A DNA stretch of 64,000 nucleotides, taken from assembly GCA_963706595.1 (NCBI GenBank), contig OY970166.1:4576001-4640000 (forward strand), read 5' to 3'. Position 1 is the first letter of the stretch; each line of letters begins with the position of its first letter. The notes under the pieces were generated by a model. It had not been told where the DNA came from. It saw only the letters and a program-made list of their open reading frames with translations, and made no database searches. The DNA is from an uncultured cyanobacterium. GTDB taxonomy: Bacteria > Cyanobacteriota > Cyanobacteriia > Cyanobacteriales > Nostocaceae. The position numbers were made by a program, and so were the translations under genes. Positions 1-12,325 of the stretch are shown piece after piece.

Positions 1-118
1 TTTCAGCTACAGACCGCAGCATATAAACGTATACCGATTTCGCCCCTTGCCCTCGTCCTTGTCCGGATTCAAATAAAACCGTTGCTCGTGGTCCAATCTT
101 TTTTCGTTGTGTTGCCAT
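1..118 (-). CDS. Hypothetical protein, 5' part only (MATQRKKIGPRATVLFESGQGRGQGAKSVYVYMLRSVAE...), runs off the left edge
   Basis: ATG at 118 preceded by GGAG. Frame is open to position 1 and co-oriented with the upstream operon. Confidence 0.65.
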   Translation of the reverse strand, partial: MATQRKKIGPRATVLFESGQGRGQGAKSVYVYMLRSVAE

Positions 119-147
119 TCAATTGCTCCAATGCTTAGTAATGGTTT

Positions 148-1167
148 TTAGAGATAATCAATTGCGATGATCACAACGTCACCATTGCCGGCGGCTTCAG
201 AGGTAAAAGGAATATTTGCGCTGATAGTGGCGACTCCAGCTTCCAGGTCGAATTGGACCTGAACGTTGTCCGGCTGGGAATCAGTGGGAACCACAAGTTT
301 TTCACTAGCAGCCAACAAAGTAGAAATTTCAATGAAGGCTTCCATGATAGTACTAGACTTTAGATCACCGCCGCCATTGACAAAACCAGAATAAGTAGAA
401 CCCAAGTAATCTTGTGCAACAATTTTGGTAGAACCATCTGTTTGTGCAGTTGCAATAATAGGAATTGTTGCTGCAACTGAAATAGTTCCAGTGTCGAACG
501 AAACGGTGGTAGCTAGGTTTCTTCGTGGGGTTAGTCCTGGGTTAGCTCCATTCCGAGCTTGTTCTGCCGCATCCATAGCCCTGGCCACTTCAAAGAATGC
601 CGATGGAATTTGTGTAGCGTTTAAAGTTCCCGCAGTTCCTGGGTCAAATGTACTCATTCGTTCCTCGCTGTAAAAAATGTAGTAACCGTATTTGTAATCA
701 GTTGTAGCCCGGAATTGTCCCAAATTGGCGGGGACAAACCAATCTAGATTCTTTGGGCTTAAGGTCGAAGAACCCACCGCAGTTAAAGAGACTGAACCGG
801 GAATAAATAACTTATTCTGCCGAAATACTAAATTAAATGCGGATTTCGAGAAAAAATCTTGAATTGGTGGTGGTACATTATCAATTACTTCCTGCCAGTC
901 AATGCTTGCAGTTTTTCCATTGGGGAATGTAATCGATGGGGCAGACTGGCTTTTGTTAGAACTTTTAGTTTTGACTATAGGAGTCTTAGGGAGTAAAATA
1001 TACCAATTTCGTTTCCATTTGTAAGCTATAGCTATCCCTTTCTTTAGCAGTCTCTTGAATAGCTTTAATAAATAAGTGTCTGCAAAATTGGTTATTTTAG
1101 CGAGGTCAGATAATTTAATTGCTAAATGCCCATTGATAACATAAATTTCAAATAGTTCTACCCTCAT
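148..1167 (-). CDS. Hypothetical protein; basic wHTH-like N-half plus a two-repeat C-half, probably also translated from an internal ATG at 657
   Basis: 339-aa ORF. GAGGAA precedes the in-frame ATG at 657. The last 169 aa are two ~80-aa repeats ending AQDYL and AIDYL. Confidence 0.7.
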   Translation of the reverse strand: MRVELFEIYVINGHLAIKLSDLAKITNFADTYLLKLFKRLLKKGIAIAYKWKRNWYILLPKTPIVKTKSSNKSQSAPSITFPNGKTASIDWQEVIDNVPPPIQDFFSKSAFNLVFRQNKLFIPGSVSLTAVGSSTLSPKNLDWFVPANLGQFRATTDYKYGYYIFYSEERMSTFDPGTAGTLNATQIPSAFFEVARAMDAAEQARNGANPGLTPRRNLATTVSFDTGTISVAATIPIIATAQTDGSTKIVAQDYLGSTYSGFVNGGGDLKSSTIMEAFIEISTLLAASEKLVVPTDSQPDNVQVQFDLEAGVATISANIPFTSEAAGNGDVVIIAIDYL

Positions 1168-3920
1168 GATTTCTTTTTATCTTTATCTCTCAAAGACAAA
1201 CTCCAAGTAGGCATATTATCTTTCTGCCCAGTTTTGAAGAAATGCACTCTAACCGGAACTACACGAACTTGTTTGTAGACTCCAGGGCGTTCGCCAATCT
1301 TGGGCGGTTGAATGTCTTTTAGGTATTTAGGGGCAATGTATGCTTTGAAAGCATTAATTACCCTCGTACATTCCGTCTTACTTTTCGCATTGATAATTAC
1401 TTTTGAATTATCATTAAGAACCAGAATTCCTTCAAAGTTTCCTTTTTCATATTGAGGAAATTTAGGCTTGAAATCCTTTCCTTTATTGTAGTGAGGAATT
1501 GTTATAGCCCATCGACTGCGACCAATTTTACCATCTTCAAAAACCTCAGCGTATTGAATGACTAACTGCGGACGCTGAAAAACTCGCACTTGCCACCACT
1601 CAGGAGTCACTAAATAGGAATCTTCATTATTTTTAGCTTCACATAATTTTGTGTTAGCCTTAGCCATCTCGGCATAAGAATTGCGAACTTTATTTATTTC
1701 ATTTCCTGTGGAGGTTGCCAAAACTTTGATTGTTATTTCCTTAGTTTCAGGTGTCCATACACCATCGCTTTCAGTACAAAGAATAGTATCAACTTTTATC
1801 TCTACCCAAGAAATATTAGAGGTGCATCGCTGTACTTGAGTACTAGTTTGATTCACAACATTAGTCAAACTATTGACTTGGTTATTAGTTGCATTGGTAA
1901 CGTTGGTCAGATTAGTGACTTGGTTATTAGTTGCATTGGTAACGTTGGTCAGATTAGTGACTTGGTTATTAGTTGCATTGGTAACGTTGGTCAGATTAGT
2001 GACTTGGTTATTAGTTGCATTGGTAACGTTGGTCAGATTAGTGACTTGGTTATTAGTTGCATTGGTAACGTTGGTCAGATTAGTGACTTGGTTATTCGTT
2101 GCGTTGGTAACGTTGGTCAGATTAGTGACTTGGTTATTAGTTGCATTGGTAACGTTGGTCAGATTAGTGACTTGGTTATTCGTTGCGTTGGTAACATTGG
2201 TCAAGTTGCTGACTTGGTTATTAGTTGCGTTGGTAACATTGGTCAAGTTGGTGACTTGAGTACCAAGTTTTGTAATATTTTGATTTGCATTATTAACTAT
2301 ATTTCCAGTATTTATAACTGTTGGTCTGAGAGCGGTGACAGCACTAGCAGTAGCCAATGAAGTAGTATTTAGTGCCACAGCCTGACCTTGTAAAGCTGCT
2401 ACTTGTCCCTGTAAAGCTGCTACTTGTCCTTGCAAAGCAAATACTTGAGTTGTGACAGGAACGATGGCCGCAGTTTGCGCAACCGTAGCTAGTGGCGATG
2501 CCTGATACCACATATTTAAGCCTTCAGGAAAGCATTTACCATTTGTCATTTCCTGGCATAATGCTTCCTGCATTGCGCTAGGCAATGCGTCTGTTTTTAG
2601 CCGAATATTATTGCTCAATACCTCTACGTTGGTTATTTTTGATTGCAAAACACCCAAAGCACCAAATATACCAGCTAATTCTGCCATATTAAATTTGCCA
2701 TCCTTACCACGCTGACCAGTCAAACCACGCTGACCAGTCAAACCACGTTCTCCAGTCAAACCACGCTGACCAGTCAAACCACGTTCTCCAGTCAAACCAC
2801 GCTGACCAGTCAAACCACGCTGACCAGTCAAACCACGCTGACCAGTCAAACCACGCTGACCAGTCAAACCACGTTCTCCAGTCAAACCACGCTGACCAGT
2901 CAAACCACGCTGACCAGTCAAACCACGTTCTCCAGTCAAACCACGCTGACCAGTCAAACCACGCTGACCAGTCAAACCACGCTGACCAGTCAAACCACGT
3001 TCTCCAGTCAAACCACGCTGACCAGTCAAACCACGTTCTCCAGTCAAACCACGCTGACCAGTCAAACCACGCTGACCAGTCAAACCACGCTGACCAGTCA
3101 AACCACGCTGACCAGTCAAACCACGTTCTCCAGTCAAACCACGCTGACCAGTCAAACCACGCTGACCAGTCAAACCACGTTCTCCAGTCAAACCACGCTG
3201 ACCAGTCAAACCACGCTGACCAGTCAAACCACGCTGACCAGTCAAACCACGTTCTCCAGTCAAACCACGCTGACCAGTCAAACCACGCTGACCAGTCAAA
3301 CCACGTTCTCCAGTCAAACCACGCTGACCAGTCAAACCACGCTGACCAGTCAAACCACGCTGACCAGTCAAACCACGCTGACCAGTCAAACCACGCTGAC
3401 CAGTCAAACCACGCTGACCAGTCAAACCACGTTCCCCCTGAAGTCCTCGCGGTCCGGGGATAGCTTTTGCTCTTAGTGCCGATTCAGCCGTAGCTAATGC
3501 TTGATTGGCAGTATTTTTAATGGGTAAAAGTAATCCCAGCACGCGAGAAATATCAGCCCCAAGCGCTGATAAACCACGCTCTACAGCATCAATTCTCGCC
3601 CCTAGTACTTGCAGTGCTGCAATTGATGCCAAGATTCCCGTAATAGTAAATGCTAATGCGGCGACCTTAGTCGCGGCGGCGGCGGCGGCGGCGGCGGCTC
3701 CCTTGGCGATTGCTTCTATAGCGAGAAATTTTATTGCCAGCCCTGCGATCGCAGCTGCTATTAATTGCTCGGTACGAGGCATGATTAGAGCCTCAGCCCC
3801 GGCTATGGAAGATTGGATAATTTGAGGTTTTTCACTCTTCAGAACATACTTTCCATCCAGGGCGGCGATCGCCGCACTCAAAGCAGCAATTTCGCCCGAT
3901 ATTTCGTTACAAGAACTCAC
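1164..3920 (-). CDS. Collagen-like / coiled-coil fibre protein (putative phage-like fibre or spike)
   Basis: 918 aa: Ala-rich helical N-terminus, 40 x GLTG(Q/E)R, 9 x 14-aa heptad-pair repeat, globular C-terminus. Confidence 0.8.
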   Translation of the reverse strand: MSSCNEISGEIAALSAAIAALDGKYVLKSEKPQIIQSSIAGAEALIMPRTEQLIAAAIAGLAIKFLAIEAIAKGAAAAAAAAATKVAALAFTITGILASIAALQVLGARIDAVERGLSALGADISRVLGLLLPIKNTANQALATAESALRAKAIPGPRGLQGERGLTGQRGLTGQRGLTGQRGLTGQRGLTGQRGLTGQRGLTGERGLTGQRGLTGQRGLTGERGLTGQRGLTGQRGLTGQRGLTGERGLTGQRGLTGQRGLTGERGLTGQRGLTGQRGLTGQRGLTGQRGLTGERGLTGQRGLTGERGLTGQRGLTGQRGLTGQRGLTGERGLTGQRGLTGQRGLTGERGLTGQRGLTGQRGLTGQRGLTGQRGLTGERGLTGQRGLTGERGLTGQRGLTGQRGKDGKFNMAELAGIFGALGVLQSKITNVEVLSNNIRLKTDALPSAMQEALCQEMTNGKCFPEGLNMWYQASPLATVAQTAAIVPVTTQVFALQGQVAALQGQVAALQGQAVALNTTSLATASAVTALRPTVINTGNIVNNANQNITKLGTQVTNLTNVTNATNNQVSNLTNVTNATNNQVTNLTNVTNATNNQVTNLTNVTNATNNQVTNLTNVTNATNNQVTNLTNVTNATNNQVTNLTNVTNATNNQVTNLTNVTNATNNQVTNLTNVTNATNNQVNSLTNVVNQTSTQVQRCTSNISWVEIKVDTILCTESDGVWTPETKEITIKVLATSTGNEINKVRNSYAEMAKANTKLCEAKNNEDSYLVTPEWWQVRVFQRPQLVIQYAEVFEDGKIGRSRWAITIPHYNKGKDFKPKFPQYEKGNFEGILVLNDNSKVIINAKSKTECTRVINAFKAYIAPKYLKDIQPPKIGERPGVYKQVRVVPVRVHFFKTGQKDNMPTWSLSLRDKDKKKS
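1875..2252 (-). repeat. 9 x 42-bp coding tandem repeat (NLTNVTNATNNQVT)
   Basis: Unit gacttggttattagttgcattggtaacgttggtcagattagt repeated head to tail with few variants. Confidence 0.95.
2709..3428 (-). repeat. 40 x 18-bp coding tandem repeat (GLTGQR/GLTGER collagen triplets)
   Basis: Only two unit types, acgctgaccagtcaaacc and acgttctccagtcaaacc. Confidence 0.95.
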
Positions 3921-4277
3921 TCATTTAATCCCCGCGATTTGTGCGCGCAATGCCGACAATTCATTGAAAATACGCTTGCAATCCAAGCAGCAATCGCCGC
4001 AGTCCAGGTTATTAGGCGGGCAAGGCGATTCACACTCTGTACAGCTACCAGAGGTATTTCCGGATATTGGAGCGCTAGTTCTTGCTTCGGATAAGCTCTG
4101 AGTACCGCTCCGATAGTAATACCAATGAGCCACTTGCCGGACTCCATCTACTATCAGATGGTATCCCAGTCCATTGAAGGAGTAAGATGCGGCATATCCA
4201 CAAGCAAAATGCTCGTAATAAGCATCATTATTGACACCTTGTCCTGAAAATCGCCAGCATTTCTTAGCCGCCGCCAT
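3921..4277 (-). CDS. Small Cys-rich hypothetical protein
   Basis: 118 aa with CxxCxxxC and CxxCCxxC clusters; tightly coupled to both neighbours. Confidence 0.7.
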   Translation of the reverse strand: MAAAKKCWRFSGQGVNNDAYYEHFACGYAASYSFNGLGYHLIVDGVRQVAHWYYYRSGTQSLSEARTSAPISGNTSGSCTECESPCPPNNLDCGDCCLDCKRIFNELSALRAQIAGIK

Positions 4278-4630
4278 TAGTAATCATTCGGATCGCGAAC
4301 GTTGTCCGTGGATGGTTTCCACAAGTTAATCGTTATGGGGTCGTTTCTGTATTCAATTGCGGGTTCACCCCGTTGGGTGATATTTGAAAATCCATCTTCA
4401 AGCACAATTGACTGCTCAAGATTAGTCTCAAAGTTAGCTGGTGATAAATAAGCTTTAGCACCCAAAACAATACTGACTAAATGTCCTTCAGCTGTTGCCG
4501 TTTCTGGAGTCGTCAACCCAGATGCCACTAACGCACTATCGGGAATGAATAACCCTGCCTCTGGTGCTGGGTGTGTCACCGCTAAACGTACTGCCCCAAT
4601 GCCAAAAATTTGAGGGATGGTTGGTTCCAT
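4277..4630 (-). CDS. Hypothetical protein, putative small structural protein of the element
   Basis: 117-aa first gene of the leftward operon (MEPTIPQIFG...DPNDY); stop overlaps the next start. Confidence 0.7.
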   Translation of the reverse strand: MEPTIPQIFGIGAVRLAVTHPAPEAGLFIPDSALVASGLTTPETATAEGHLVSIVLGAKAYLSPANFETNLEQSIVLEDGFSNITQRGEPAIEYRNDPITINLWKPSTDNVRDPNDY

Positions 4631-4831
4631 GAATCTTTATCAATATTGTTAATACATAATTAATAATTCAATACATCAATGATGTAAACTTCCACTTTTA
4701 TGTAAAACTGGAACAATTATTAATACGCTCAAACTATTGGCACTACTGGGTTTGATGGCTACACTAATGATATCTGAAATATCAAATATTCCAGATTAAC
4801 CAATTAGGATGGTTAAAGATGAAGTGATTTT

Positions 4832-5413
4832 ATGAAAAACAACAGGCATGGACAAGCTGAAATTTTAACTAATTCGGAATTTTATAAAATTCGCCAACAC
4901 ATTAAAAGTAAAAAATATAAATTACTTCTTGACCTGGCGTGGTACACGGGGGAGAGGTGGGGCGCAATTACAAAATTAAAAGTTGAAGATGTCTATAATT
5001 CTGATGGTAGCCCTAGATGTGAGATTACTTTTCGTGCTGCCACACGCAAAGCCGCGCCAGACGGAGTAAGAAAAACTAGACAGTTACCAGTTCATACTGT
5101 TCTGGAAGAGTCGTTATTATCCTACAAGCCGGAATTTAACTCTGTTTGGTTGTTCCCGTGTCGGGATGGGTTGAAGCCGATTAGCTTCAAATGGGCAGAT
5201 TTGATTTTTCGCACTGCCGTAGAAAATGCTGGACTAGCCACCAAGGGGATTAGTACCCATAGCACCCGCCGGACTTTCATTACCAAACTGCACAGGCAAG
5301 GCACAGATTTGTACACAATAAAGAAAATTACAGGACACCAAGATTTTAAATCACTAGAAAAATACGTAGAAATTGATTGCGATCGCGTCAAAGGCGCTAT
5401 CAACACATTGTGA
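4832..5413 (+). CDS. Tyrosine recombinase, catalytic domain only
   Basis: YTGERW (R), HSTRR (HxxR), TGH and EKY (Y) motifs; 193 aa with no N-terminal binding domain. Confidence 0.9.
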   Translation: MKNNRHGQAEILTNSEFYKIRQHIKSKKYKLLLDLAWYTGERWGAITKLKVEDVYNSDGSPRCEITFRAATRKAAPDGVRKTRQLPVHTVLEESLLSYKPEFNSVWLFPCRDGLKPISFKWADLIFRTAVENAGLATKGISTHSTRRTFITKLHRQGTDLYTIKKITGHQDFKSLEKYVEIDCDRVKGAINTL

Positions 5414-5495
5414 TATATTTGTACTAGTAAACTGGCTGATAAGATGCACCCCTGAATGAGGAAATATGGTCTAGCGCGTAGACCATACCTTTTTT

Positions 5496-6365
5496 TCAAA
5501 GCTTGTAACCATTCATGCCAAAACCACCGCGAATGAAGTTTTTAATTTCACTCGGCGATTTACCCTGCGCAATCGCACTCTCAACCATCTGCTTTCTATC
5601 AATGGCCATCGGATTTTCATAATTTCCCCCAGGAATATGGATGTGATGAATCCCACGCACATAGTAGCAATACCGGAAATACCAGTGCTTTACACCTGAA
5701 CGCTTAACATAATATTCCTCAACCCATTGGTTATTACGTTGTTCTGGAAGAGTAGGAGTGTGCGGTTGTAAATCTTGTTCTGGAAGTTCTGGAAAAGGAA
5801 GAGTGAGTTCTATAAAATCACCATCGTTAAAGTCTGACTCTTCCAGAACATCGTCCAAAGCACGGGACATCATTTCATCCCGGTCAGGTGGCGGAACTCT
5901 CTCACCTGGGTAAGTTTCATTTATGAACTCAATCGCGTCAAGTTCAGCATCCAAATGGGTGTTGTAGTTGCCCTGGAAAGTTCCACAGAGCAGGTAGTCA
6001 TCGTAGACAGTCCATTGAATTTGGTTGTTAGGTAATTTAAAAAACTTGCAAGTATAACCACGGTAATTCTTCTGCCACCGATGCTTTTCATCAGATGTCG
6101 TAGTGTCTACATTAGGTTCTTCCAGAACACTGAATCCTTCTGGCATCGGAAACCGTGACTGCCAATCACTAAACCGCAATTCAAACTCTGCAAGTGAATC
6201 ACAATCGTCTGGCTCTGGTGGTTCTTGGGAATCGTCGTAAAAAAGTGTGAGTTGACCGTTCTCATCTCTTCCAGAAAACTCAGCGTCTAGTATTACTTCA
6301 TCCCAAAAAGGATCATGAACAGTCTTGACGGTGGTGTACTGCTCAACGTCGAATAATAGTGTCAT
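5496..6365 (-). CDS. Hypothetical protein of the mobile element (acidic PPEPDD N-terminus, HHIHIPGGN C-terminal domain)
   Basis: 289-aa ORF directly downstream of the HTH gene. Confidence 0.7.
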   Translation of the reverse strand: MTLLFDVEQYTTVKTVHDPFWDEVILDAEFSGRDENGQLTLFYDDSQEPPEPDDCDSLAEFELRFSDWQSRFPMPEGFSVLEEPNVDTTTSDEKHRWQKNYRGYTCKFFKLPNNQIQWTVYDDYLLCGTFQGNYNTHLDAELDAIEFINETYPGERVPPPDRDEMMSRALDDVLEESDFNDGDFIELTLPFPELPEQDLQPHTPTLPEQRNNQWVEEYYVKRSGVKHWYFRYCYYVRGIHHIHIPGGNYENPMAIDRKQMVESAIAQGKSPSEIKNFIRGGFGMNGYKL

Positions 6366-6368
6366 TGG

Positions 6369-7256
6369 TTATTGGTTATTGGTTATCAGTCGTTGGGGAT
6401 ATCGCTGCATCATTTCTTTGAGGTCGTGGGGATTACCGTCATTGTCATACACCGTCACCCCTCCTGAAATAGCACTGACAATTCCTTGTTGCCTCGCCCA
6501 ATTGAACCAGATGCTCAATTCAGAAGTCACTGTGTTCTTAGGCTTCTCCCCAGTTTTGCAGCTGTTGATGAATAAGCCTGTGGGATTGCTGCACCACCCT
6601 TCATTAACTGCTTCTTTTACACGAGCTACAGCACTGGCGACATTGCCCCAGTATTTCTTGATTACACCCAAGCAAGGTTCTGGGTTAATCCTCAGTGTTC
6701 TTAATTCAATGCAAACCTGCCCAACTTCAGCTTTAGTAGGCGCTGCGGGTGCAATTACCTCATGCTCTTGTTCAATTTCTTGTTCATGATCATCAATGAA
6801 AGTTTCCTCAACAGCAGTGTTGTTTTCTTTTAAACTACTTAAGTTAGTTTTATATGTTGCGACATTTCCAGCAGGTACTTGTGGAATAATTGGCACGTCT
6901 GTGTGAAATATTTCGCATCGTTGAGAATCTACATCTGGCGCGATTCTTTCAAGATTCAACCTGTACTGACTGGCAGTATCTTTGGGAAAGCAGTGTGACG
7001 GCTGCTCATCCAAAATCCCATCAAAGACCAATTCTTTGATGTGCCGGCTGATGGTTGCCCGGCAGTAACCCAGGATGTCCGCTAGGTCTTCAAAGGTAAC
7101 TCTCACCCATTCGTGCTTGTAGTAAAGTTTGCCGTCAAACCAGGACAAGATAGCCGCCTTGCACTTCTGGCGACGGTTGAATGTGGCTAAAAATTCTCTG
7201 AGAATGTTGATAGGGGTATTAATTTCGCCAAAGGTGGCGGAGGTAAAGTTTGTCAC
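6369..7256 (-). CDS. HTH-containing putative replication initiator
   Basis: VTFEDLADILGYCRATISRHIKELV wHTH motif; GGAGG before the GTG start; C-terminal NPTGLF motif. Confidence 0.6.
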   Translation of the reverse strand: MTNFTSATFGEINTPINILREFLATFNRRQKCKAAILSWFDGKLYYKHEWVRVTFEDLADILGYCRATISRHIKELVFDGILDEQPSHCFPKDTASQYRLNLERIAPDVDSQRCEIFHTDVPIIPQVPAGNVATYKTNLSSLKENNTAVEETFIDDHEQEIEQEHEVIAPAAPTKAEVGQVCIELRTLRINPEPCLGVIKKYWGNVASAVARVKEAVNEGWCSNPTGLFINSCKTGEKPKNTVTSELSIWFNWARQQGIVSAISGGVTVYDNDGNPHDLKEMMQRYPQRLITNNQ

Positions 7257-7324
7257 TGCTAATACCTCCGTGCTAATTGAGTCGAAAATGTGGGAATACT
7301 CATGAGGTAGCTACTGGAGTTGAG

Positions 7325-7594
7325 ATGGGTGATAAATTTGGTTTAAGCCCCAGTGATGTTGTGTCTATGGATGAAGACAAAAGCATTGTTGGAAGCACGT
7401 TTAAAGTCAAGGAAATGCTTCTTAGCCTAGCCGATAGGTCAATCAACGATGACTTTATTACTCAGTGGATAGGGACAGGAGTAGAGTGTGAGGTTTTGAT
7501 CAGTGGGCAGGACTGGCGGAAGGGCAAAGTGAGAATTTCTCTGGAGTTCATTCCTGACCAGCCACTGTCACCACTTGATGATCTGCGGGAATAA
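7325..7594 (+). CDS. KGK domain protein
   Basis: GVECEVL...WRKGKVRISLEFIPD signature; GGAG upstream of ATG 7325. Confidence 0.8.
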   Translation: MGDKFGLSPSDVVSMDEDKSIVGSTFKVKEMLLSLADRSINDDFITQWIGTGVECEVLISGQDWRKGKVRISLEFIPDQPLSPLDDLRE

Positions 7595-7615
7595 CTGAAA
7601 TAGTCACCACGAAAA

Positions 7616-7646
7616 AACCGTCCTGACCTGTGGTAGGTGGACGGTT
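7616..7646. terminator. Hairpin between convergent genes
   Basis: AACCGTCC (7616-7623) / GGACGGTT (7639-7646), with an A-run on the left side. Confidence 0.6.
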
Positions 7647-7979
7647 CTATTCAGAATCTTGAATTTCGGAAATCTGCTTTAACTCTTCAATTCTTTGTCT
7701 CAGAAGGCTTGCTTGTTGTTCATGATATGCCAGCTGTTTGTCAGCCTCACAAATTAGCTGGCTGAGAAGTTTCCCAGCGATTCCTTCAACCGACTCCCCT
7801 CTGAGGACAGATATATCTGACTTGTGGCTATCTTCTCCACAAGCTCTGATCTGGTAAGTCCCATGCTCTGTGCTAACTCCTGAAAAAGTTCCCAAGCATC
7901 GGGATTCACTTTTAAGCTTACCCCCTTGGTTTCCCGTCCTTTGGGCCGTCCCGTTCTCGCCATAGTAATTGTCCTGCAT
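7647..7979 (-). CDS. Hypothetical protein with C-terminal coiled coil, overlapping the RHH gene in another frame
   Basis: 110-aa ORF; C-terminus GKLLSQLICEADKQLAYHEQQASLLRQRIEELKQ is heptad-like. Confidence 0.45.
   Translation of the reverse strand: MQDNYYGENGTAQRTGNQGGKLKSESRCLGTFSGVSTEHGTYQIRACGEDSHKSDISVLRGESVEGIAGKLLSQLICEADKQLAYHEQQASLLRQRIEELKQISEIQDSE
7754..7963 (-). CDS. Ribbon-helix-helix (CopG-like) regulator
   Basis: KGVSLKVNPDAWELFQELAQSMGLTRSELVEKI fits the beta-alpha-alpha RHH pattern. Confidence 0.75.
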   Translation of the reverse strand: MARTGRPKGRETKGVSLKVNPDAWELFQELAQSMGLTRSELVEKIATSQIYLSSEGSRLKESLGNFSAS

Positions 7980-7996
7980 AATATTCTGCTTTTAAT

Positions 7997-8086
7997 TATT
8001 GCATATCCAAAAATCCATTAATTAATATTGACACAGGATATCTGGATATGCAATAGTAAGATTGTTGGATTTTTGGATATCCAATA
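7997..8086. promoter_or_regulatory. Divergent promoter region with three ~20-bp operator-like boxes
   Basis: Boxes at 7997-8017 (inverted), 8036-8055 and 8066-8086, consensus GGATwTyTGGATATsCAATA; TTGACA at 8028-8033. Confidence 0.65.
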
Positions 8087-8427
8087 GCTCCCACCCCACA
8101 CCGGGGATTACCACACGGAGCAAGCACCCACGCCTAGAACTTGCGTGGAACAACCTTGACCAATGACTAATATCAGCGCTTGCGCTTCACCAAAGCGCTG
8201 CAAACTTGTTCTTTCATGGAGGGAAACTTAGACGACAATCATCAAAAAAACCAGGGATAAACACTCTTTTTTCATTTCCCCAGTAAAGGCTAATTACTGG
8301 GGTTTCTCCCTAACACAAGCCAATTTGTCACTGAATTTATAAGGTTTTCTTGGTGGTGTTGCGGCATCACCAAGTTTCTCATAATGTCTGCGTTAATGTC
8401 TGCATTGCACATATAACCATCAAAACT

Positions 8428-8586
8428 ATGAGCTATAAACAAGCCTCACCCTGGGCTGTCTTTAGAGTAGAAGATTTTGGAAATCTTTTACTAACAAGAT
8501 TCCGCAAGCGTAGCGACGCTGATGAATATGCAAAACTTCTCAGAAACAACACACCCTACAAAATTGAGGTGGTATTCGACGTATGA
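8428..8586 (+). CDS. Small hypothetical protein (52 aa)
   Basis: MSYKQASPWAVFR...RFRKRSDADEY...EVVFDV; stop overlaps the next ATG (ATGA). Confidence 0.65.
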   Translation: MSYKQASPWAVFRVEDFGNLLLTRFRKRSDADEYAKLLRNNTPYKIEVVFDV

Positions 8587-8867
8587 CACAAAAATCACTA
8601 TTACCCTACGATGGCAATTACGCTTTAATTCACAAGCGGACGCTACTGGTTAACAGTATGGTTTTGACTGCGATGACAGAATTTATCTCGCAAAATTCAT
8701 CTATCACAAGCGAACAACTAGCTCTACTGTTTGGTGAAACTGCTAATAAAATTGTTGCTGCTATGTCCGATGAAACAGTCAATGCCAACGCTTGCGGCTT
8801 AATTTCAAAGTCCATCATAAACAATGGCGTTTCTTCATTTGTTGAATACCATTCCAGTAAAGAATAA
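8583..8867 (+). CDS. Hypothetical protein
   Basis: 94-aa ORF in the operon. Confidence 0.55.
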   Translation: MTQKSLLPYDGNYALIHKRTLLVNSMVLTAMTEFISQNSSITSEQLALLFGETANKIVAAMSDETVNANACGLISKSIINNGVSSFVEYHSSKE

Positions 8868-8871
8868 CATC

Positions 8872-9240
8872 ATGAAAATTAAAACTATCACTTATCAACG
8901 AGTTCTCAACCTGGGGAATTATGAAAGCAAGCGGTTAGACATGACTATCGAAGTTGACGCAAATCTTGAATTTGCAGAAGAAGAATGCTCCATCCTCATG
9001 GAATCTGTAGAGCGTAAAATTCGAGAAGAATCTGAGGCTTTAATTCTCAATGAAATTAGAGATGCCAGAAAAAAACTGCGTGAAGTTAACAAGGAAATTG
9101 AAGCGGGTAAGCAACTTTTAGCAGAAATAGGAAAGGAATTAAACCCGGACATCGAGCCAGGACTTTCACCTTATGAAATAGCAGAAATCGACCGTAAAGT
9201 TAGAAAGGAGGCATATCTTAACCCTGACGAAGACTTTTAA
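8872..9240 (+). CDS. Hypothetical phage-like protein
   Basis: MKIKTITYQRVLNLGNYESKRL N-terminal motif followed by a coiled coil. Confidence 0.7.
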   Translation: MKIKTITYQRVLNLGNYESKRLDMTIEVDANLEFAEEECSILMESVERKIREESEALILNEIRDARKKLREVNKEIEAGKQLLAEIGKELNPDIEPGLSPYEIAEIDRKVRKEAYLNPDEDF

Positions 9241-9247
9241 GATTTAG

Positions 9248-9283
9248 GCGATCGCACAGTTTGGAGGAGTGCGATCGCTTTTC
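9248..9283 (+). terminator. Intrinsic terminator whose stem is formed by two HIP1 sites
   Basis: GCGATCGCAC (9248-9257) / GTGCGATCGC (9269-9278), followed by TTTT. Confidence 0.6.
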
Positions 9284-9287
9284 TTCC

Positions 9288-9316
9288 TTGCCAGGATAAT
9301 GAAACAAATATAACTT
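9288..9316 (+). promoter_or_regulatory. Putative sigma70-type promoter for the bridge RNA/recombinase
   Basis: TTGCCA (9288-9293), 17-bp spacer, TAACTT (9311-9316). Confidence 0.45.
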
Positions 9317-9321
9317 AAAAC

Positions 9322-9552
9322 CGCCTGAACGAGCCGGACTAACTCACCGGCGAAACGTGAGCGCTCACGTCGCGGACTGAGTTCGCAGCACATCAACTTA
9401 GGGCTTTGTTAGTGAATTAAGCTCTTGTGGCTTTCCCATCTTCGTAAGCTCGGTTGATGTGTTTTTGTGTCCCCAGTGTTTGCAGCACTGGAAGCTTTGA
9501 GACTGAATTAGGCTCTTTGGCCTTTGGGTGATTCACAAGCTGTAAGACACAA
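9322..9552 (+). ncRNA. Putative IS110 bridge RNA (5' stem-loop, target-binding loop, donor-binding loop)
   Basis: 5' hairpin 9341-9383. Loop 1 is closed by GCACATCAAC/GTTGATGTGT, loop 2 by TGTGTC/GACACA. Both have the layout GCTT-TG-[8-nt guide]-TT-A(A/G)GC..GC(T/C)T-[guide]-AAGC. Guides match the downstream junction. Confidence 0.8.
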
Positions 9553-9583
9553 TTCACACACCTACTCTAAGGATGAAAACTGA

Positions 9584-10771
9584 ATGACTAGAATTGTTGG
9601 GTTGGATGTTTCCAAGTCAAGTGTTTCGTGCTGTCTATTGGAGGAAAAGCCAAGGAATCCAAGAGAATTTTACTATGAATACCCCTTCAAAAAGTTTCAA
9701 AGTGATAAATTTGGATTATTGGCATTAATGGCATTGCGGCCAGAAGTTGCAATTCTTGAACCGACGGGAGTGAATTACTCCAAATTCTGGACAGAACATT
9801 TATCTCGTGCCGGGGTAGAAGTTCGCTTCGTAGGACACAAAGAACTCAGGAGTTACCGCGAAAATCACTTGGGACTGCCAGATAAAGATGATGATGCCGA
9901 CTCGTTGGCGCTGGCTTGTTATCAGTTCGACTATGGAAAAGATTTGAGCCGGTTCGTCCGGGTACGCGATCGCTTAATTTCCCGAACGAGGGAAGCAGTG
10001 CTGCGGCTTAGTCATCTTAACCGAATACAATCCCCCATCATCAACCGCATCCGTCAGGATTTGGCATGGCAGTTCCCAGAAGTTGCGCTTGTCCGTTCAA
10101 TTCGGTGTTCTGGAAGAGTGCCTTTACTTTGGGGATGGCTAGCTGGTCAGCGTGAAAGTAAAAAATATGATCGCATTTACGCCACCACCGCAGGATTAGG
10201 ATTAACCGATTCGGTAAGGTTTCACGCGCAGCGCATTTGTAGCTTACAGGCAGAAGAGCAAATTTTAGAAGATGAACTAGCAGAAATTCTCATAGATGAA
10301 CGGTTCACTCGTTACCGTGATATTTTCGCAAATTTCCAGTTTGGGGAGAGACTGCAAGCTGTGATTCTCTCCCAAATTTACCCCTTAGAAAATTTCTTGG
10401 GTGAGGATGGTAAACCAGAAATCAAAATCCGCAAAGGTAGGAAATCTGGTAAACCAACCAAACGCCACCTGTCACTAAGGCGATTTCAGAAAGCTTTGGG
10501 TGTAGCGCCTTCTCAAGAATCAAGCGGCGATATTTCTAAATCTAAAGTTTCCGGTGGATCGGCTTTGTGCCGTCGCGCCCTTTGGCAGTGGGTTTTTAGT
10601 GCAGTTGAACCTGCCAAACGCCGCACGAATCCCATGTTAAAAGAATTGGGAGAATTTCTTGATACCGAGAAATTAGCAGGCAAACCAGTCAAACTGGTAC
10701 GAATGCGAGTAGCTGTTAAAGCTGTAAAGCTGTTATTTAAAATGTTGACTAGTAACGTTATCAGTCAATAA
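9584..10771 (+). CDS. IS110-family DEDD recombinase (bridge recombinase)
   Basis: N-terminal GLDVSK, LEPTG and KDDDADS (RuvC-like DEDD); C-terminal GVAPSQESSG motif with the catalytic Ser. Confidence 0.9.
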   Translation: MTRIVGLDVSKSSVSCCLLEEKPRNPREFYYEYPFKKFQSDKFGLLALMALRPEVAILEPTGVNYSKFWTEHLSRAGVEVRFVGHKELRSYRENHLGLPDKDDDADSLALACYQFDYGKDLSRFVRVRDRLISRTREAVLRLSHLNRIQSPIINRIRQDLAWQFPEVALVRSIRCSGRVPLLWGWLAGQRESKKYDRIYATTAGLGLTDSVRFHAQRICSLQAEEQILEDELAEILIDERFTRYRDIFANFQFGERLQAVILSQIYPLENFLGEDGKPEIKIRKGRKSGKPTKRHLSLRRFQKALGVAPSQESSGDISKSKVSGGSALCRRALWQWVFSAVEPAKRRTNPMLKELGEFLDTEKLAGKPVKLVRMRVAVKAVKLLFKMLTSNVISQ

Positions 10772-10833
10772 CACAATGGTGGCGTAGGGAGTCGGTACAA
10801 TACACGTAACAATTACGCCGCCACTATTTTATT

Positions 10834-10846
10834 AGACTGAAGATGG
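10834..10846 (+). other. Right junction (attR-like): donor-left AGACT + core GAA + target-right GATGG
   Basis: AGACTGAA equals guide 9500-9507; GAAGATGG is the reverse complement of guide 9436-9443. Confidence 0.8.
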
Positions 10847-10872
10847 CAAAGTTATCAGTGGAAAATTAAATC

Positions 10873-11478
10873 ATGCTCGAAAATCGAGACTATACACTCA
10901 TTATCGACAAAAGCGGTAGTATGGCTACCCCAGATCAGAAAGGTGGTAGAACTAGATGGGTATCAGCACAAGAATCTACCCTAGCCTTAGCGAGTAAGTG
11001 CGAGCAATTTGATCCAGATGGCATCACTGTATATTTATTTTCTGGTAGATTCAAGCGCTACGATAATGTTACAGCCGCTAAAGTAACACAAATCTTTAAA
11101 GAAAATGACCCCTCTGGTTCTACAGATTTAGCAGGTGTGTTGAAACACGCCACGGATGATTACTTTCAACGTAAGAATGCGGGTCAAACGAAGCCCAATG
11201 GTGAAATTATTTTGGTAGTTACTGACGGCGAACCGGATGACCGTAAAGCGGTAATGAAGGTAATTATTGAAGCTTCTCGCCGGATGGATAATGATGAGGA
11301 ACTAGGTATTTCCTTCATTCAAGTTGGTACAGATGCACAAGCTACTCGCTTTCTGAAAGTGTTAGATGATGACCTCCAAGGTGCTGGAGCAAAATTTGAT
11401 ATCTGCGACACAATTACAATGGATGATATGGAGGATTTAAGTTTATCGGAAGTGCTACTAAATGCCATTACGGACTAG
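10873..11478 (+). CDS. von Willebrand factor A domain protein
   Basis: DKSGSM MIDAS motif and VTDGEP. Confidence 0.9.
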   Translation: MLENRDYTLIIDKSGSMATPDQKGGRTRWVSAQESTLALASKCEQFDPDGITVYLFSGRFKRYDNVTAAKVTQIFKENDPSGSTDLAGVLKHATDDYFQRKNAGQTKPNGEIILVVTDGEPDDRKAVMKVIIEASRRMDNDEELGISFIQVGTDAQATRFLKVLDDDLQGAGAKFDICDTITMDDMEDLSLSEVLLNAITD

Positions 11479-11574
11479 CGACCGCTGCGCGGAAGTCAAA
11501 AGTTAAAAGTCAAAAGTTAAAAGAACTTTTTGAAATGTATCCCTATTTACGCCGTGAATTACTAGCTTAAAAGC

Positions 11575-11982
11575 ATGGATTCTCTTGATAAGCTGCTAGA
11601 TGAACTCAAAGCTGAATATGATCAAACCAAACCCGCAGCATCACAACCCCAGAAAAATTCAGCCAAACCATTTACCCCACAACCACCAAAATCGTTATCT
11701 TTAGTCGATAGCCTTTTGGCAGAAGTTGGGGCTGATTTTGCAGCACAAGATGAAGTGGAGGAGTTTAAAAAACAGCAAGAATTAGCACAGGAAAAAAATC
11801 GACAAGCCCAAATCAAAGCCCAACAAATAGCAGCTTTGAAAGTTGAAGCAGAAACATGGTTGAAAAAATTAGATCCGTTTTCTTCAGAAGGACTTTGGTT
11901 TGAAAGGTTTGCTGAAAGTTACCCTTCAAAATTAGAGGCGGCGATTGAATATTTACAAAGCAACGAATCAACTCAAACTTAA
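11575..11982 (+). CDS. Conserved cyanobacterial hypothetical protein
   Basis: 135 aa, C-terminal WLKKLDPFSSEGLWFERFAESYPSKLEAAIEYL. Confidence 0.7.
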   Translation: MDSLDKLLDELKAEYDQTKPAASQPQKNSAKPFTPQPPKSLSLVDSLLAEVGADFAAQDEVEEFKKQQELAQEKNRQAQIKAQQIAALKVEAETWLKKLDPFSSEGLWFERFAESYPSKLEAAIEYLQSNESTQT

Positions 11983-11986
11983 CTTG

Positions 11987-12325
11987 CTAGTCGTTGATTG
12001 ACAAAAAGTGTTCAACAGCCCATTTATGCATTGCATAAAGAATTGGGATCAGACTTTTTCCCAAACTTGTCAATGAGTATTCTACCTTTGGGGGGATTTG
12101 TGGATAAACTTCACGATGTACAATACCGTCTTCTTCCATTTCTCGGAGTTGCTGAGTCAGCATTTTTTGGGTAATTCCCGGTAAGCCTCGCTGCAATTCC
12201 CCAAAGCGTTTGGTCTGTGAAATTAATTCTCTAATAATTAAAACTTTCCAACGCCCACCAATTACCTTTAATGTAGTTTCAACTTCGCAAGTGAGCCTGA
12301 TGTCGGTTTTTGCTTCAGCTTTCAT
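11987..12325 (-). CDS. HxlR-family transcriptional regulator
   Basis: [10 protein letters not shown]...[25 protein letters not shown]...PPKVEYSLT. Confidence 0.92.

What the first reader, a model, noticed from the sequence alone, without database searches (positions are those of the whole stretch)
9288..9552. Bridge RNA readable by eye, with predicted target, donor and core, and its own promoter
Seen: loop 1 guides TTAGTGAA (9409-9416) and CCATCTTC (9436-9443); loop 2 guides AGACTGAA (9500-9507) and GGTGATTC (9527-9534). The two loops share nearly the same scaffold. Loop 2 has an extra hairpin (CCAGTG/CACTGG), and the 5' stem contains a perfect 16-bp palindrome (9355-9370). Predicted target is TTAGT-GAA-GATGG and predicted donor is AGACT-GAA-TCACC. 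Established: IS621 has the order 5' hairpin, target loop, donor loop, and its promoter forms at the circle junction. Inference: here a terminator and an internal TTGCCA-17-TAACTT promoter precede the RNA, so expression would not need circularisation, as expected if the left end is far away.
Basis: partly seen in the sequence, partly recalled or inferred. Interest (0 to 1): 0.85.

Follow-up and report, generated by a model that had tools for sequence, protein, structure and literature searches.

The report
Hammerhead-capped bridge RNA, 12-kb element
This stretch encodes the two-loop guide ("bridge") RNA of an RNA-guided recombinase that has inserted a 12-kb block of genes into a cyanobacterial chromosome, and the guide is preceded by what looks like a self-cutting hammerhead ribozyme that would trim it out of a longer transcript.

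Summary
Window 9372-9556 is a two-loop bridge RNA in front of a very divergent IS110-type recombinase gene (9584-10771). Across 74 homologous cyanobacterial loci, the variable loop-1 guide plus the conserved loop-2 guide spells the right junction exactly in 43 loci and with one mismatch in 14. Swapped guides do so in 2 of 5370 pairs.

The left end is not in the window. It lies 848 bases before base 1, so the element is 11,689 bp. An empty site in a sister genome reads ATAGT-GAA-GATGG, against the predicted TTAGT-GAA-GATGG. The donor is AGACT-GAA-TCCCC, not TCACC. Nine elements with both ends mapped are 11.7-17.2 kb long and carry syntenic, mostly unknown cargo.

It has covarying stems and a covarying pseudoknot, and would cut at 9371/9372 to make the bridge RNA's 5' end. 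In 17 of 40 loci an upstream gene abuts the motif, so processing from an operon transcript is the likely way the family expresses the RNA. Cleavage and expression are untested. I rate it a new variant of a known kind.

The parts
1..10841 (+). Part of the mobile element that lies in the window. The whole element is 11,689 bp, G000:C1:4575153-4586841, and its first base lies 848 nt before window base 1.
   Evidence: The left junction ATAGT-GAA|TCCCCAAT is at L103 2910-2925. The empty site TTGCTATAGT-GAA-GATGGCAAAG is in a sister genome (L098). Length.
1164..3920 (-). Cargo: 918-aa collagen-repeat, coiled-coil, fibre-like protein.
   Evidence: Pfam Collagen 153 bits; PHROG tail-fibre families, best E 5.9e-56.
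4832..5413 (+). Cargo: 193-aa Xer-like tyrosine recombinase (catalytic domain only), conserved in sister elements.
   Evidence: Pfam Phage_integrase 58.6 bits. 62-74% identical copies in 4 of 5 clade-B elements. A serine resolvase takes its place in L075's element.
8350..9240 (+). Three overlapping small ORFs (78, 94 and 138 aa) co-oriented with the RNA and the recombinase. Probably the upstream part of the same transcription unit.
   Evidence: Homologues of the 138-aa ORF lie upstream of the recombinase in 27 of 80 loci, and of the 78-aa ORF in 17 of 80. A promoter-like site at 8028-8057 is no more than chance.
9248..9316 (+).
   Evidence: Sequence. Not listed by the scanner. No counterpart in the 17 of 40 loci where the upstream ORF stop lies within -2 to +4 nt of the ribozyme.
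9321..9375 (+). Hammerhead-ribozyme motif, type I. Stem I 9321-9324 pairs with 9372-9375. Core CUGAACGA is 9325-9332. Stem II is 9333-9351. GAA is 9352-9354. C17 is 9371. The predicted cut is between 9371 and 9372.
   Evidence: Family parse. Sub-threshold matches to Rfam RAGATH-1-hammerhead in L024, L003 and L079. No Rfam match in the window copy.
9341..9383 (+). Predicted tertiary pseudoknot of the ribozyme: loop II AACUCA (9341-9346) pairs with UGAGUU (9378-9383).
   Evidence: At least 5 Watson-Crick pairs in 30 of 44 parsed loci, against 98 of 2200 shuffled loops. Several covarying pair types.
9372..9556 (+). Bridge RNA, from the predicted ribozyme cut to the end of the second stem-loop. 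Its 3' end is not defined, and it may stay joined to the recombinase mRNA.
   Evidence: Fold. RNAalifold on 71 homologues gives 33 pairs, 14 with compensatory changes.
9390..9460 (+). Target-binding stem-loop. Left target guide is 9408-9416 (GUUAGU+GAA). Right target guide is 9435-9443 (C+CCAUC+UUC).
   Evidence: The guide positions vary while the scaffold is conserved. The guides match the flanks.
9465..9552 (+). Donor-binding stem-loop with an extra hairpin (CCAGUG/CACUGG). Left donor guide is 9499-9507 (GAGACU+GAA). Right donor guide is 9526-9534 (GGGUGA+UUC).
   Evidence: The guides are conserved across the family. They match the element ends ...TAGACTGAA and TCCCCA....
9584..10771 (+). 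395-aa IS110-type (DEDD plus Ser) bridge recombinase, very divergent.
   Evidence: NCBIfam NF051857 532 bits. Pfam DEDD_Tnp_IS110 25.1 bits (cut-off 29) and Transposase_20 25 bits (cut-off 21.3). The AF2 model (pLDDT 86.9) best matches IS621 8wt6_A at E 1.9e-9.
10834..10846 (+). Right junction AGACT-GAA|GATGG. The element ends at 10841 and the core GAA is 10839-10841.
   Evidence: Exact and unique in the window. Homology to 8 sister genomes starts at 10829-10854.

Best explanation
Window 9372-9556 encodes a bridge RNA for the recombinase encoded at 9584-10771. Loop 1 (target loop) reads the chromosomal site and loop 2 (donor loop) reads the joined ends of the element. All four guides include a 3-nt core, GAA. 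The pair has integrated an 11,689-bp element with about 15 cargo genes into an intergenic site upstream of a vWA gene. It belongs to a family of 11.7-17.2-kb low-copy elements in filamentous cyanobacteria. In that family the RNA and recombinase sit at the extreme right end, 10-16 kb from the left end. Because the RNA is so far from the left end, it cannot use the circle-junction promoter of IS621. Instead it is most likely transcribed together with the upstream small genes, or in this copy perhaps from a local promoter. A type-I hammerhead ribozyme placed directly in front of it would then cut it free, with cleavage after C9371 giving a 5'-OH GCGG... end. Shown here: the anatomy, the guide/junction covariation, the element ends, the empty site, the recombinase fold, and the ribozyme motif with covarying stems and pseudoknot. 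Inferred: transcription, self-cleavage, recombination activity, and whether this copy is still active.
For: Guides and junctions:
- The right junction predicted from the guides is exact at 10834-10846.
- In 74 homologous loci the predicted 13-mer lies downstream of the CDS exactly in 43 loci (40 distinct right-target sequences), with 1 mismatch in 14, and is not found in 17. The swapped-guide control gives 2 exact of 5370 pairs.
- Left junctions of the form LT5+GAA+TCCCC were found for 10 of 10 elements examined: 8 exact and 2 with one mismatch.
- Nine elements have both ends on one contig. They are 11,689-17,175 bp long, and all start TCCCCA and end TAGA[C/G]TGAA.
- Eight same-genus genomes have the uninterrupted site TTGCTATAGT-(G/A/T)AA-... 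with the same two flanking genes adjacent.

RNA structure:
- The target loop is variable and the donor loop conserved.
- 14 of 33 consensus pairs show compensatory changes.

Recombinase:
- NF051857 at 532 bits.
- The best structural matches are IS621 and ISCro4.

Ribozyme:
- 44 of 77 loci parse strictly as CUGAnGA, stem II, GAAA, stem III, UH, GCGG. H17 is C in 41 and A in 3.
- Pairs beyond the three required by the parse take 4-5 Watson-Crick types with almost no non-pairs.
- The loop II pseudoknot has at least 5 bp in 30 of 44 loci, against 98 of 2200 shuffles.
- The Rfam RAGATH-1-hammerhead model aligns the whole core at the right place in L024 (23.5 bits), L003 (26.4) and L079 (26.2).
- The upstream ORF stop lies within -2 to +4 nt of the motif in 17 of 40 loci.

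Literature:
- Pseudoknot-stabilised hammerheads near integrase genes are described in PMC3088659 (passages).
- Discontiguous RDG-RD pairing in IS621 is described in PMC11208160 (passages).
Against: - No experiment or RNA data exist. No RNA run was listed.
- No Rfam hammerhead model reaches its gathering score (best 26.4 against 56.3). The window's own copy gets no hammerhead hit even at E<=10 in a 101-nt search, and neither does L011.
- The window copy has an extra base in the core (CUGAACGA instead of CUGAnGA). This is shared with 2 other loci among the 44 parsed.
- The window copy lacks about 20 nt of the otherwise conserved 5' hairpin (GUCCAAA loop) between the cut site and the target loop.
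- Stem I is only 2-4 bp.
- 33 of 77 loci fail the strict parse. A Nostoc subgroup carries an insertion of about 35 nt between the core and stem II.
- The left target guide differs from the actual site at one position, and the right donor guide never matches the left end contiguously.
- 17 of 74 loci show no right junction within the DNA held. Three of these have at most 327 nt downstream.
- The element is single-copy in its genome, so recent activity is not shown.
- A tyrosine recombinase is also on board.
Confidence: 0.8

Rival explanations
1. In this copy the bridge RNA is made from its own promoter (TTGCCA-17-TAACTT, start near 9321-9325). The hammerhead motif is then a decayed or irrelevant leader.
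For: The hexamers and a hairpin with a T-run are present. An 81-nt spacer separates the upstream ORF from the motif only in this copy. The window's ribozyme core has an extra base and no Rfam hit.
Against: The -10 matches only 3 of 6 and the scanner does not list the site. Nothing comparable is conserved: 17 of 40 loci leave no room for a promoter. A start at about 9323 would fall in stem I. The pseudoknot is kept in the window by a compensatory variant, AACUCA/UGAGUU, which argues for selection on the ribozyme.
Confidence: 0.2
2. The hammerhead-like motif does not cleave. It is a structured 5' domain of the bridge RNA, for example a protein-binding platform, that only resembles a hammerhead.
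For: All Rfam hammerhead scores are below threshold. Stem I is very short. IS621 also has a 5' stem-loop of unknown role (PMC11208160, passages).
Against: Every invariant hammerhead core position is conserved. G10.1-C11.1 and C15.2-G16.2 are invariant. Position 17 is never G in the strict set. The covarying loop II pseudoknot is of the kind shown to be needed for fast cleavage (PMC3088659).
Confidence: 0.1
3. The 11.7 kb is not moved by the bridge recombinase. A small IS110-type unit sits by chance at the edge of an island that the tyrosine recombinase integrated.
For: A tyrosine recombinase gene is in the cargo. The left ends of pairwise homology between copies are ragged.
Against: The left junction 10-16 kb away carries the locus-specific left-target sequence plus GAA in 10 of 10 elements. 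Chance is about 0.001 per element for the five exact clade-B matches. The core GAA flanks both ends. The empty site equals left flank plus GAA plus right flank. The tyrosine recombinase is replaced by a serine resolvase in one element, which fits a multimer-resolution role.
Confidence: 0.03

Closest known systems
IS621 / ISCro4 bridge recombinase and bridge RNA (IS110 group; Durrant 2024 PMC11208160, passages read; PDB 8wt6, 8wt9, 9t56)
   Same: The RNA lies 5' of the recombinase gene and has a leader, a variable target loop and a conserved donor loop. Each loop has a left guide that reads like the top strand and a right guide complementary to it, and both include the core. The core is duplicated at both junctions. 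RDG-RD pairing is discontiguous. The recombinase fold matches.
   Different: There is no sequence-level match to the solved proteins. The core is 3 nt (GAA) instead of the CT dinucleotide. The element is 11.7-17.2 kb with cargo instead of a minimal IS. The RNA lies 10-16 kb from the left end, so the circle-junction promoter cannot serve it. A hammerhead motif stands where IS621 has a plain 5' stem-loop. Copy number is low: 37 of 401 cyanobacterial genomes sampled had a match, with 1-3 matches each.
Hammerhead ribozymes stabilised by a pseudoknot (Perreault 2011, PMC3088659, passages read; Rfam RF03152 RAGATH-1-hammerhead)
   Same: Same CUGAnGA / GAAA / UH core and three-stem junction. A Watson-Crick pseudoknot of 5-6 bp holds stems I and II together. 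Bacterial examples lie near integrase genes of mobile elements.
   Different: Stem I is only 2-4 bp. The pseudoknot partner lies just 3' of the cut, inside the RNA that is released. The motif is fused to a guide RNA. No Rfam model reaches threshold.
Filamentous Nf prophages of Neisseria that carry an IS110-family transposase as integrase (PMC7058167, passages read; it cites Kawai 2005, not read)
   Same: A multi-gene, phage-like element with a replication gene at one end and an IS110-family enzyme at the other, integrated at short specific sites.
   Different: A different host phylum, with unrelated and mostly unrecognisable cargo. There is no evidence here for a filamentous phage: no Zot-like ATPase was found. 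For Nf no bridge RNA or ribozyme is mentioned in the passages read.
IS1111-group seekRNA elements
   Same: An RNA-guided DEDD recombinase of the same superfamily.
   Different: There the RNA lies 3' of the gene. Here it lies 5'.

Membership tests
IS110-family bridge recombinase system (IS110 group) | N-terminal RuvC-like DEDD domain plus C-terminal Tnp (serine) domain | tested here: met
   NF051857 at 532 bits. Pfam DEDD_Tnp_IS110 covers residues 5-161 at 25.1 bits (below the cut-off of 29). Transposase_20 covers 296-341 at 25 bits (above 21.3). Foldseek's top 10 hits are IS621 and ISCro4 chains, E 1.9e-9 to 3.7e-8, TM 0.40-0.55.
IS110-family bridge recombinase system (IS110 group) | Catalytic D-E-D-D and Ser residues present | tested here: inconclusive
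   D8, E59, D102, D106 and S314-G315 are invariant in 19 homologues. They sit in motifs I recall as the IS110 catalytic motifs. No residue-level superposition on IS621 was made.
IS110-family bridge recombinase system (IS110 group) | Structured RNA with two internal loops encoded next to the gene | tested here: met
   (14 of 33 pairs compensatory in 71 sequences).
IS110-family bridge recombinase system (IS110 group) | One loop covaries with the insertion site and the other matches the element's own ends, with a shared core at both junctions | tested here: met
   Right junction: 43 exact and 14 one-mismatch of 74, with a control of 2 of 5370. Left junction: 10 of 10. Ends and the GAA core.
IS110-family bridge recombinase system (IS110 group) | RNA lies in the non-coding left end, expressed from a promoter rebuilt at the RE-LE circle junction | tested here: not met
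   The RNA starts 10.2 kb from the left end in this element and 10-16 kb away in eight others. This is a difference in layout, not in recombination chemistry.
IS110-family bridge recombinase system (IS110 group) | Minimal insertion sequence (recombinase plus RNA only) | tested here: not met
   Elements are 11,689-17,175 bp with syntenic cargo.
Hammerhead ribozyme (type I) | Conserved core C3-U4-G5-A6-N7-G8-A9, G12-A13-A14, A15.1-U16.1, H17 | tested here: inconclusive
   The family meets it: 44 of 77 loci parse strictly, and H17 is C in 41 and A in 3. The window copy has one extra base between A6 and G8 (CUGAACGA).
Hammerhead ribozyme (type I) | Three helices around the core, supported by covariation | tested here: met
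   Stems II and III show multiple Watson-Crick pair types at positions not forced by the parse. Stem I is short, at 2-4 bp.
Hammerhead ribozyme (type I) | [quoted passage not shown] | tested here: met
   The pseudoknot between loop II and the segment 3' of stem I has at least 5 bp in 30 of 44 loci, against 98 of 2200 shuffles. Covarying types are GACUC/GAGUC, GACCC/GGGUC, GAACC/GGUUC, GGAAUC/GAUUCC and AACUCA/UGAGUU.
Hammerhead ribozyme (type I) | Reaches the gathering score of an Rfam hammerhead model | tested here: not met
   Best RF03152 score is 26.4 bits against a cut-off of 56.3. No hits at gathering in 14 loci. No hits in the window.
Hammerhead ribozyme (type I) | Site-specific self-cleavage | not testable with these tools
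   Needs an in vitro cleavage assay or 5'-end mapping.

The most novel reading that the evidence does not exclude
A family of 12-17-kb, low-copy, probably episomal (virus- or plasmid-like) elements of filamentous cyanobacteria uses a bridge recombinase as its integrase. It matures the bridge RNA with a built-in hammerhead ribozyme, so guide production is tied to operon transcription rather than to a circle-junction promoter. This would be a natural counterpart of engineered ribozyme-flanked guide RNAs, and natural evidence that bridge recombination moves cargo of at least 17 kb.
Probability: 0.55. Interest if true: 0.88.

Novelty: new variant of a known kind. Interest (0 to 1): 0.8.

Why it matters
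Bridge recombinases are being developed as programmable tools for large DNA rearrangements. This family offers four things that bear on that work.
- It is a branch so divergent that sequence searches against the solved enzymes fail, yet it follows the same two-loop logic, with 40 or more natural target variants.
- It uses a 3-nt core and a conserved bulged right donor guide.
- It is a natural case where the enzyme carries 12-17 kb of cargo.
- It shows a natural way to express the guide from inside a long transcript: a self-cleaving ribozyme placed exactly at the guide's 5' end.

The last point would link two well-studied RNA classes that the full-text searches made here did not find linked. 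It can be tested directly with a simple cleavage assay.

Tried and rejected
- **Contiguous reading of the left junction (TTAGTGAATCACC).** No match with up to 2 mismatches in the window apart from the guide's own DNA. No exact match in the whole genome, and 9 one-mismatch hits against 6 for the control, none nearby. Rejected in favour of TCCCC once the real ends were found.
- **Left junction within 3 kb upstream in 75 loci.** None found, because the elements are 12-17 kb long.
- **Rfam.** Nothing in window 8000-12000 at E<=1. Nothing at gathering in 14 loci except an unrelated HEARO RNA and a tRNA. L011 and the window gave no hammerhead hit at E<=10.
- **Sequence search of the recombinase against PDB.** No match, either alone or as a 19-sequence profile.
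- **Circle junction in IMG/VR.** The 14-nt motif gave 86 matching stretches. The 80 that were returned as loci and screened carry no recombinase or cargo homologue, so they are chance hits. A protein scan found no relative of the recombinase in viral contigs.
- **Deposited phages.** The 339-aa and 289-aa cargo proteins had no match. The ESM Atlas gave no usable hit for the 339-aa protein. A 4-sequence alignment of positional homologues was too weak (18-26% identity) to fold.
- **RNA evidence.** No RNA holder was listed.
- **Earlier notes of this scan.** Nothing at this place or for this protein.
- **Literature.** 'hammerhead'+'IS110' returned 3 papers, 'hammerhead'+'bridge RNA' 5 papers, and 'hammerhead ribozyme'+'cyanobacteria'+'transposase' 7 papers. 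Judged from listings and from passages of 10.64898/2026.10.21.760802, none links a natural hammerhead to a bridge RNA. 'bridge recombinase'/'cargo'/'prophage' gave nothing relevant in the 15 listed. No supplements were consulted. The supplementary tables of Durrant 2024 and of the 2026 preprint (closed) could already list this family.

Full report
**1. The observation**

- The two loops share a scaffold: 9403-9434 and 9494-9525 are 78% identical.
- The interval folds into two long stem-loops preceded by short hairpins (z = -2.47, 2 of 200 shuffles as good).
- The ORF that follows (9584-10771, 395 aa) matches NCBIfam NF051857 'IS110 family transposase' at 532 bits.
- It matches Pfam only weakly: DEDD_Tnp_IS110 25.1 bits (below the cut-off of 29) and Transposase_20 25 bits.
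- Neither the protein nor a 19-sequence profile finds any PDB sequence.
- An AlphaFold model (pLDDT 86.9) has IS621 and ISCro4 as its ten best structural matches, with E 1.9e-9 to 3.7e-8.

The enzyme is therefore a very divergent bridge-type recombinase.

**2. The guides really read the junctions**

Joining the left guide of loop 2 with the reverse complement of the right guide of loop 1 gives AGACTGAAGATGG. This occurs exactly once in the window, at 10834-10846, 63 nt after the stop codon.

I fetched 80 related loci, all from filamentous cyanobacteria. In an alignment of 76 upstream regions, the loop-1 guide positions vary freely inside a conserved scaffold. The loop-2 guides are nearly constant: GAGAGU or GAGACU plus GAA, and GGGUGA plus UUC.

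For the 74 loci with guides and a complete gene, the predicted 13-mer lies downstream of the gene as follows:
- exactly in 43 loci, with 40 different right-target sequences;
- with one mismatch in 14;
- not found in 17, of which three have at most 327 nt of downstream DNA.

With guides swapped between loci, only 2 of 5370 pairs match exactly. In 15 loci the junction overlaps the stop codon (AGAG-TGA-A).

**3. Where the left end is**

The contiguous prediction TTAGT-GAA-TCACC is absent from the window and from the genome. No locus has its counterpart within 3 kb.

Synteny solved this.
- DNA to the right of 10841 is shared with the other genomes of the genus, starting at 10818-10854.
- The DNA on their left matches the window's genome about 1 kb before the window start.
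- There the sequence reads ...GGTTGCTATAGT-GAA|TCCCCAATAGTC....
- A sister genome has the uninterrupted site GGTTGCTATAGT-GAA-GATGGCAAAG.
- Eight same-genus genomes have the two flanking genes adjacent, with variants of this site.

The element is therefore 11,689 bp (G000:C1:4575153-4586841), flanked by GAA on both sides.
- Target: ATAGT-GAA-GATGG, one mismatch to the left target guide.
- Donor: AGACT-GAA-TCCCC.

The same layout holds elsewhere. Left junctions with the locus-specific five bases, then GAA, then TCCCC were found for four clade-A genomes (one has a G:T-type mismatch). The one from the genome of L005 and L009 lies on another contig, and those two loci share the same left guide, so it cannot be assigned between them. 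For five clade-B loci the left junction lies 10.9-15.9 kb upstream and all five are exact. Chance is about 0.001 per locus.

Nine elements have both ends on one contig and measure 11,689 to 17,175 bp. All begin TCCCCA and end TAGA(C/G)TGAA.

The right donor guide GGGUGAUUC never matches TCCCC contiguously. It fits with a bulged or mismatched U. This recalls the discontiguous RDG-RD pairing reported for IS621 (PMC11208160, passages).

**4. The 5' 'stem' is a hammerhead motif**

Conservation upstream of the loops begins abruptly at (A)ACCGC-CUGA(U/C)GA. It continues through a variable hairpin, CGAAAC, a second variable hairpin, GUC and GCGG. This is the hammerhead core in type-I order.

In the window the parts are:
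- stem I, 9321-9324 paired with 9372-9375;
- core, 9325-9332;
- stem II, 9333-9351;
- GAA, 9352-9354;
- C17, 9371.

A strict, bulge-free parse succeeds in 44 of the 77 loci with enough upstream DNA. Position 17 is C in 41 and A in 3. G10.1-C11.1 and C15.2-G16.2 are invariant. Pairs beyond the three the parse demands take four or five Watson-Crick types with almost no non-pairs. A looser pattern matches 69 of 77.

Loop II is complementary to the bases just 3' of stem I. There are at least 5 Watson-Crick pairs in 30 of 44 loci, against 98 of 2200 shuffled loops. The covarying variants are GACUC/GAGUC, GACCC/GGGUC, GAACC/GGUUC, GGAAUC/GAUUCC and, in the window, AACUCA/UGAGUU. Such pseudoknots are a known way for hammerheads to reach full speed, and bacterial hammerheads often lie near integrase genes (PMC3088659, passages).

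The Rfam RAGATH-1-hammerhead model aligns the full core at the right position in three loci, at 23.5, 26.4 and 26.2 bits. That is far below its cut-off of 56.3.

Several points count against the ribozyme reading:
- The window copy and L011 give no hammerhead hit.
- The window copy has one extra base in the core.
- The window copy lacks about 20 nt of a conserved hairpin that follows the cut site.
- Stem I is only 2-4 bp.
- A Nostoc subgroup has an insertion of about 35 nt next to the core.

**5. How the RNA is probably expressed**

In IS621 a promoter is rebuilt across the circle junction just upstream of the RNA (PMC11208160, passages). Here that junction is 10-16 kb away.

The RNA and recombinase are the last genes of a co-oriented block. 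In the window this block is the 78-, 94- and 138-aa ORFs at 8350-9240. Homologues of the 138-aa ORF lie upstream of the recombinase in 27 of 80 loci. In 17 of the 40 loci where it could be measured, the upstream ORF stops within -2 to +4 nt of the ribozyme, often as UAA-CCGC. That leaves no room for a promoter.

The simplest model is read-through transcription followed by hammerhead cleavage. This would release an RNA that begins GCGG at 9372 and may continue into the recombinase message.

The scanner lists neither. A start from that promoter would fall at the very edge of stem I. I can neither confirm nor exclude it, since no RNA run was listed.

**6. The cargo**

Recognisable genes are few:
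- a 918-aa collagen-repeat fibre-like protein;
- a 193-aa Xer-like tyrosine recombinase;
- a weak HTH, replication-initiator-like protein;
- a KGK-domain protein.

Everything else is unknown. The order of genes and several proteins are shared with the clade-B elements, and the tyrosine recombinase is 62-74% identical in four of five. One element has a serine resolvase instead. This suggests a multimer-resolution role for these enzymes and an episomal phase for the element.

No relatives were found in deposited phages, in IMG/VR or in the ESM Atlas with the queries tried.

The recombinase matched in 37 of 401 cyanobacterial genomes sampled, with one to three matches each. That is unlike a proliferating insertion sequence.

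The nearest precedent for a multi-gene element that integrates with an IS110-family enzyme is the Nf prophage group of Neisseria (PMC7058167, passages).

**7. Verdict**

The finding is real, and the bridge-RNA reading is right apart from one letter in the target and one in the donor.
- As a bridge RNA it is a new member of a known kind.
- The layout is a new variant. It combines a guide and recombinase at the far end of a 12-17-kb cargo element, a 3-nt core, a bulged donor guide, and a hammerhead exactly at the guide's 5' end.
- I found no paper linking a natural hammerhead to a bridge RNA (searches; supplements not seen).
- Cleavage, transcription and recombination remain to be tested.

Noticed in passing
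L093 1440-1510 (genome G006, same genus): At the orthologous site this genome lacks the 11.7-kb element but reads ...CTACTAGACTGAAGATGG. That is the right-junction sequence, and about 24 nt resemble the element's right end. The sequence is preceded by about 250 nt of repeat-rich DNA. It may be a scar of a lost element rather than a clean empty site.
   Followed up: partly
window 9556-9583 and the same place in 76 loci (last block): A conserved CACC(C) lies 15-25 nt before the start codon (ACACCTAC, AACCACCCAGGAG). It is complementary to the GGGUG of the right donor guide and adjoins the ribosome-binding site. It could allow an alternative pairing that couples guide folding to translation.
   Followed up: no
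window 9376-9389 versus L003 2772-2805 and most other loci: The window copy, and L074, lack about 20 nt of an otherwise conserved hairpin with loop GUCCAAA between the ribozyme cut site and the target loop. In other copies this hairpin overlaps the pseudoknot partner, so the two structures exclude each other. That may be a switch between the pre- and post-cleavage states.
   Followed up: no
L029, L031, L033, L035, L040-L042, L045, L046, L048, L050, L053, L055, L059, L060: A Nostoc subgroup carries an insertion of about 35 nt, rich in GCGATCGC, between CUGAUGA and stem II of the ribozyme motif. In some of these loci, such as L029 and L043, the pseudoknot complementarity is also lost.
   Followed up: no
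L005 4322-4548: A HEARO (IsrB-type omega) RNA at 141.8 bits, above the Rfam gathering score, lies about 80 nt beyond the right junction of that element. A second RNA-guided mobile element is therefore its neighbour.
   Followed up: no
window about 11473-11531: A repeat of about 45-50 nt between the vWA gene and the next gene recurs at 88-95% identity at many places in this genome and its relatives (query positions 619-697). It is probably a miniature repeat element.
   Followed up: no
right ends of 15 loci: In 15 loci the recombinase stop codon TGA lies inside the left-donor/core sequence (AGAG-TGA-A), so the gene ends exactly at the element's last bases. In other loci up to 1.6 kb lies between the stop codon and the right junction.
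   Followed up: partly
plasmid CP150887.1 21929-23095: A 178-kb plasmid of an Aphanizomenonaceae cyanobacterium carries a 71.5% identical recombinase gene annotated only as 'transposase'. Members of the family therefore also sit on plasmids.
   Followed up: no
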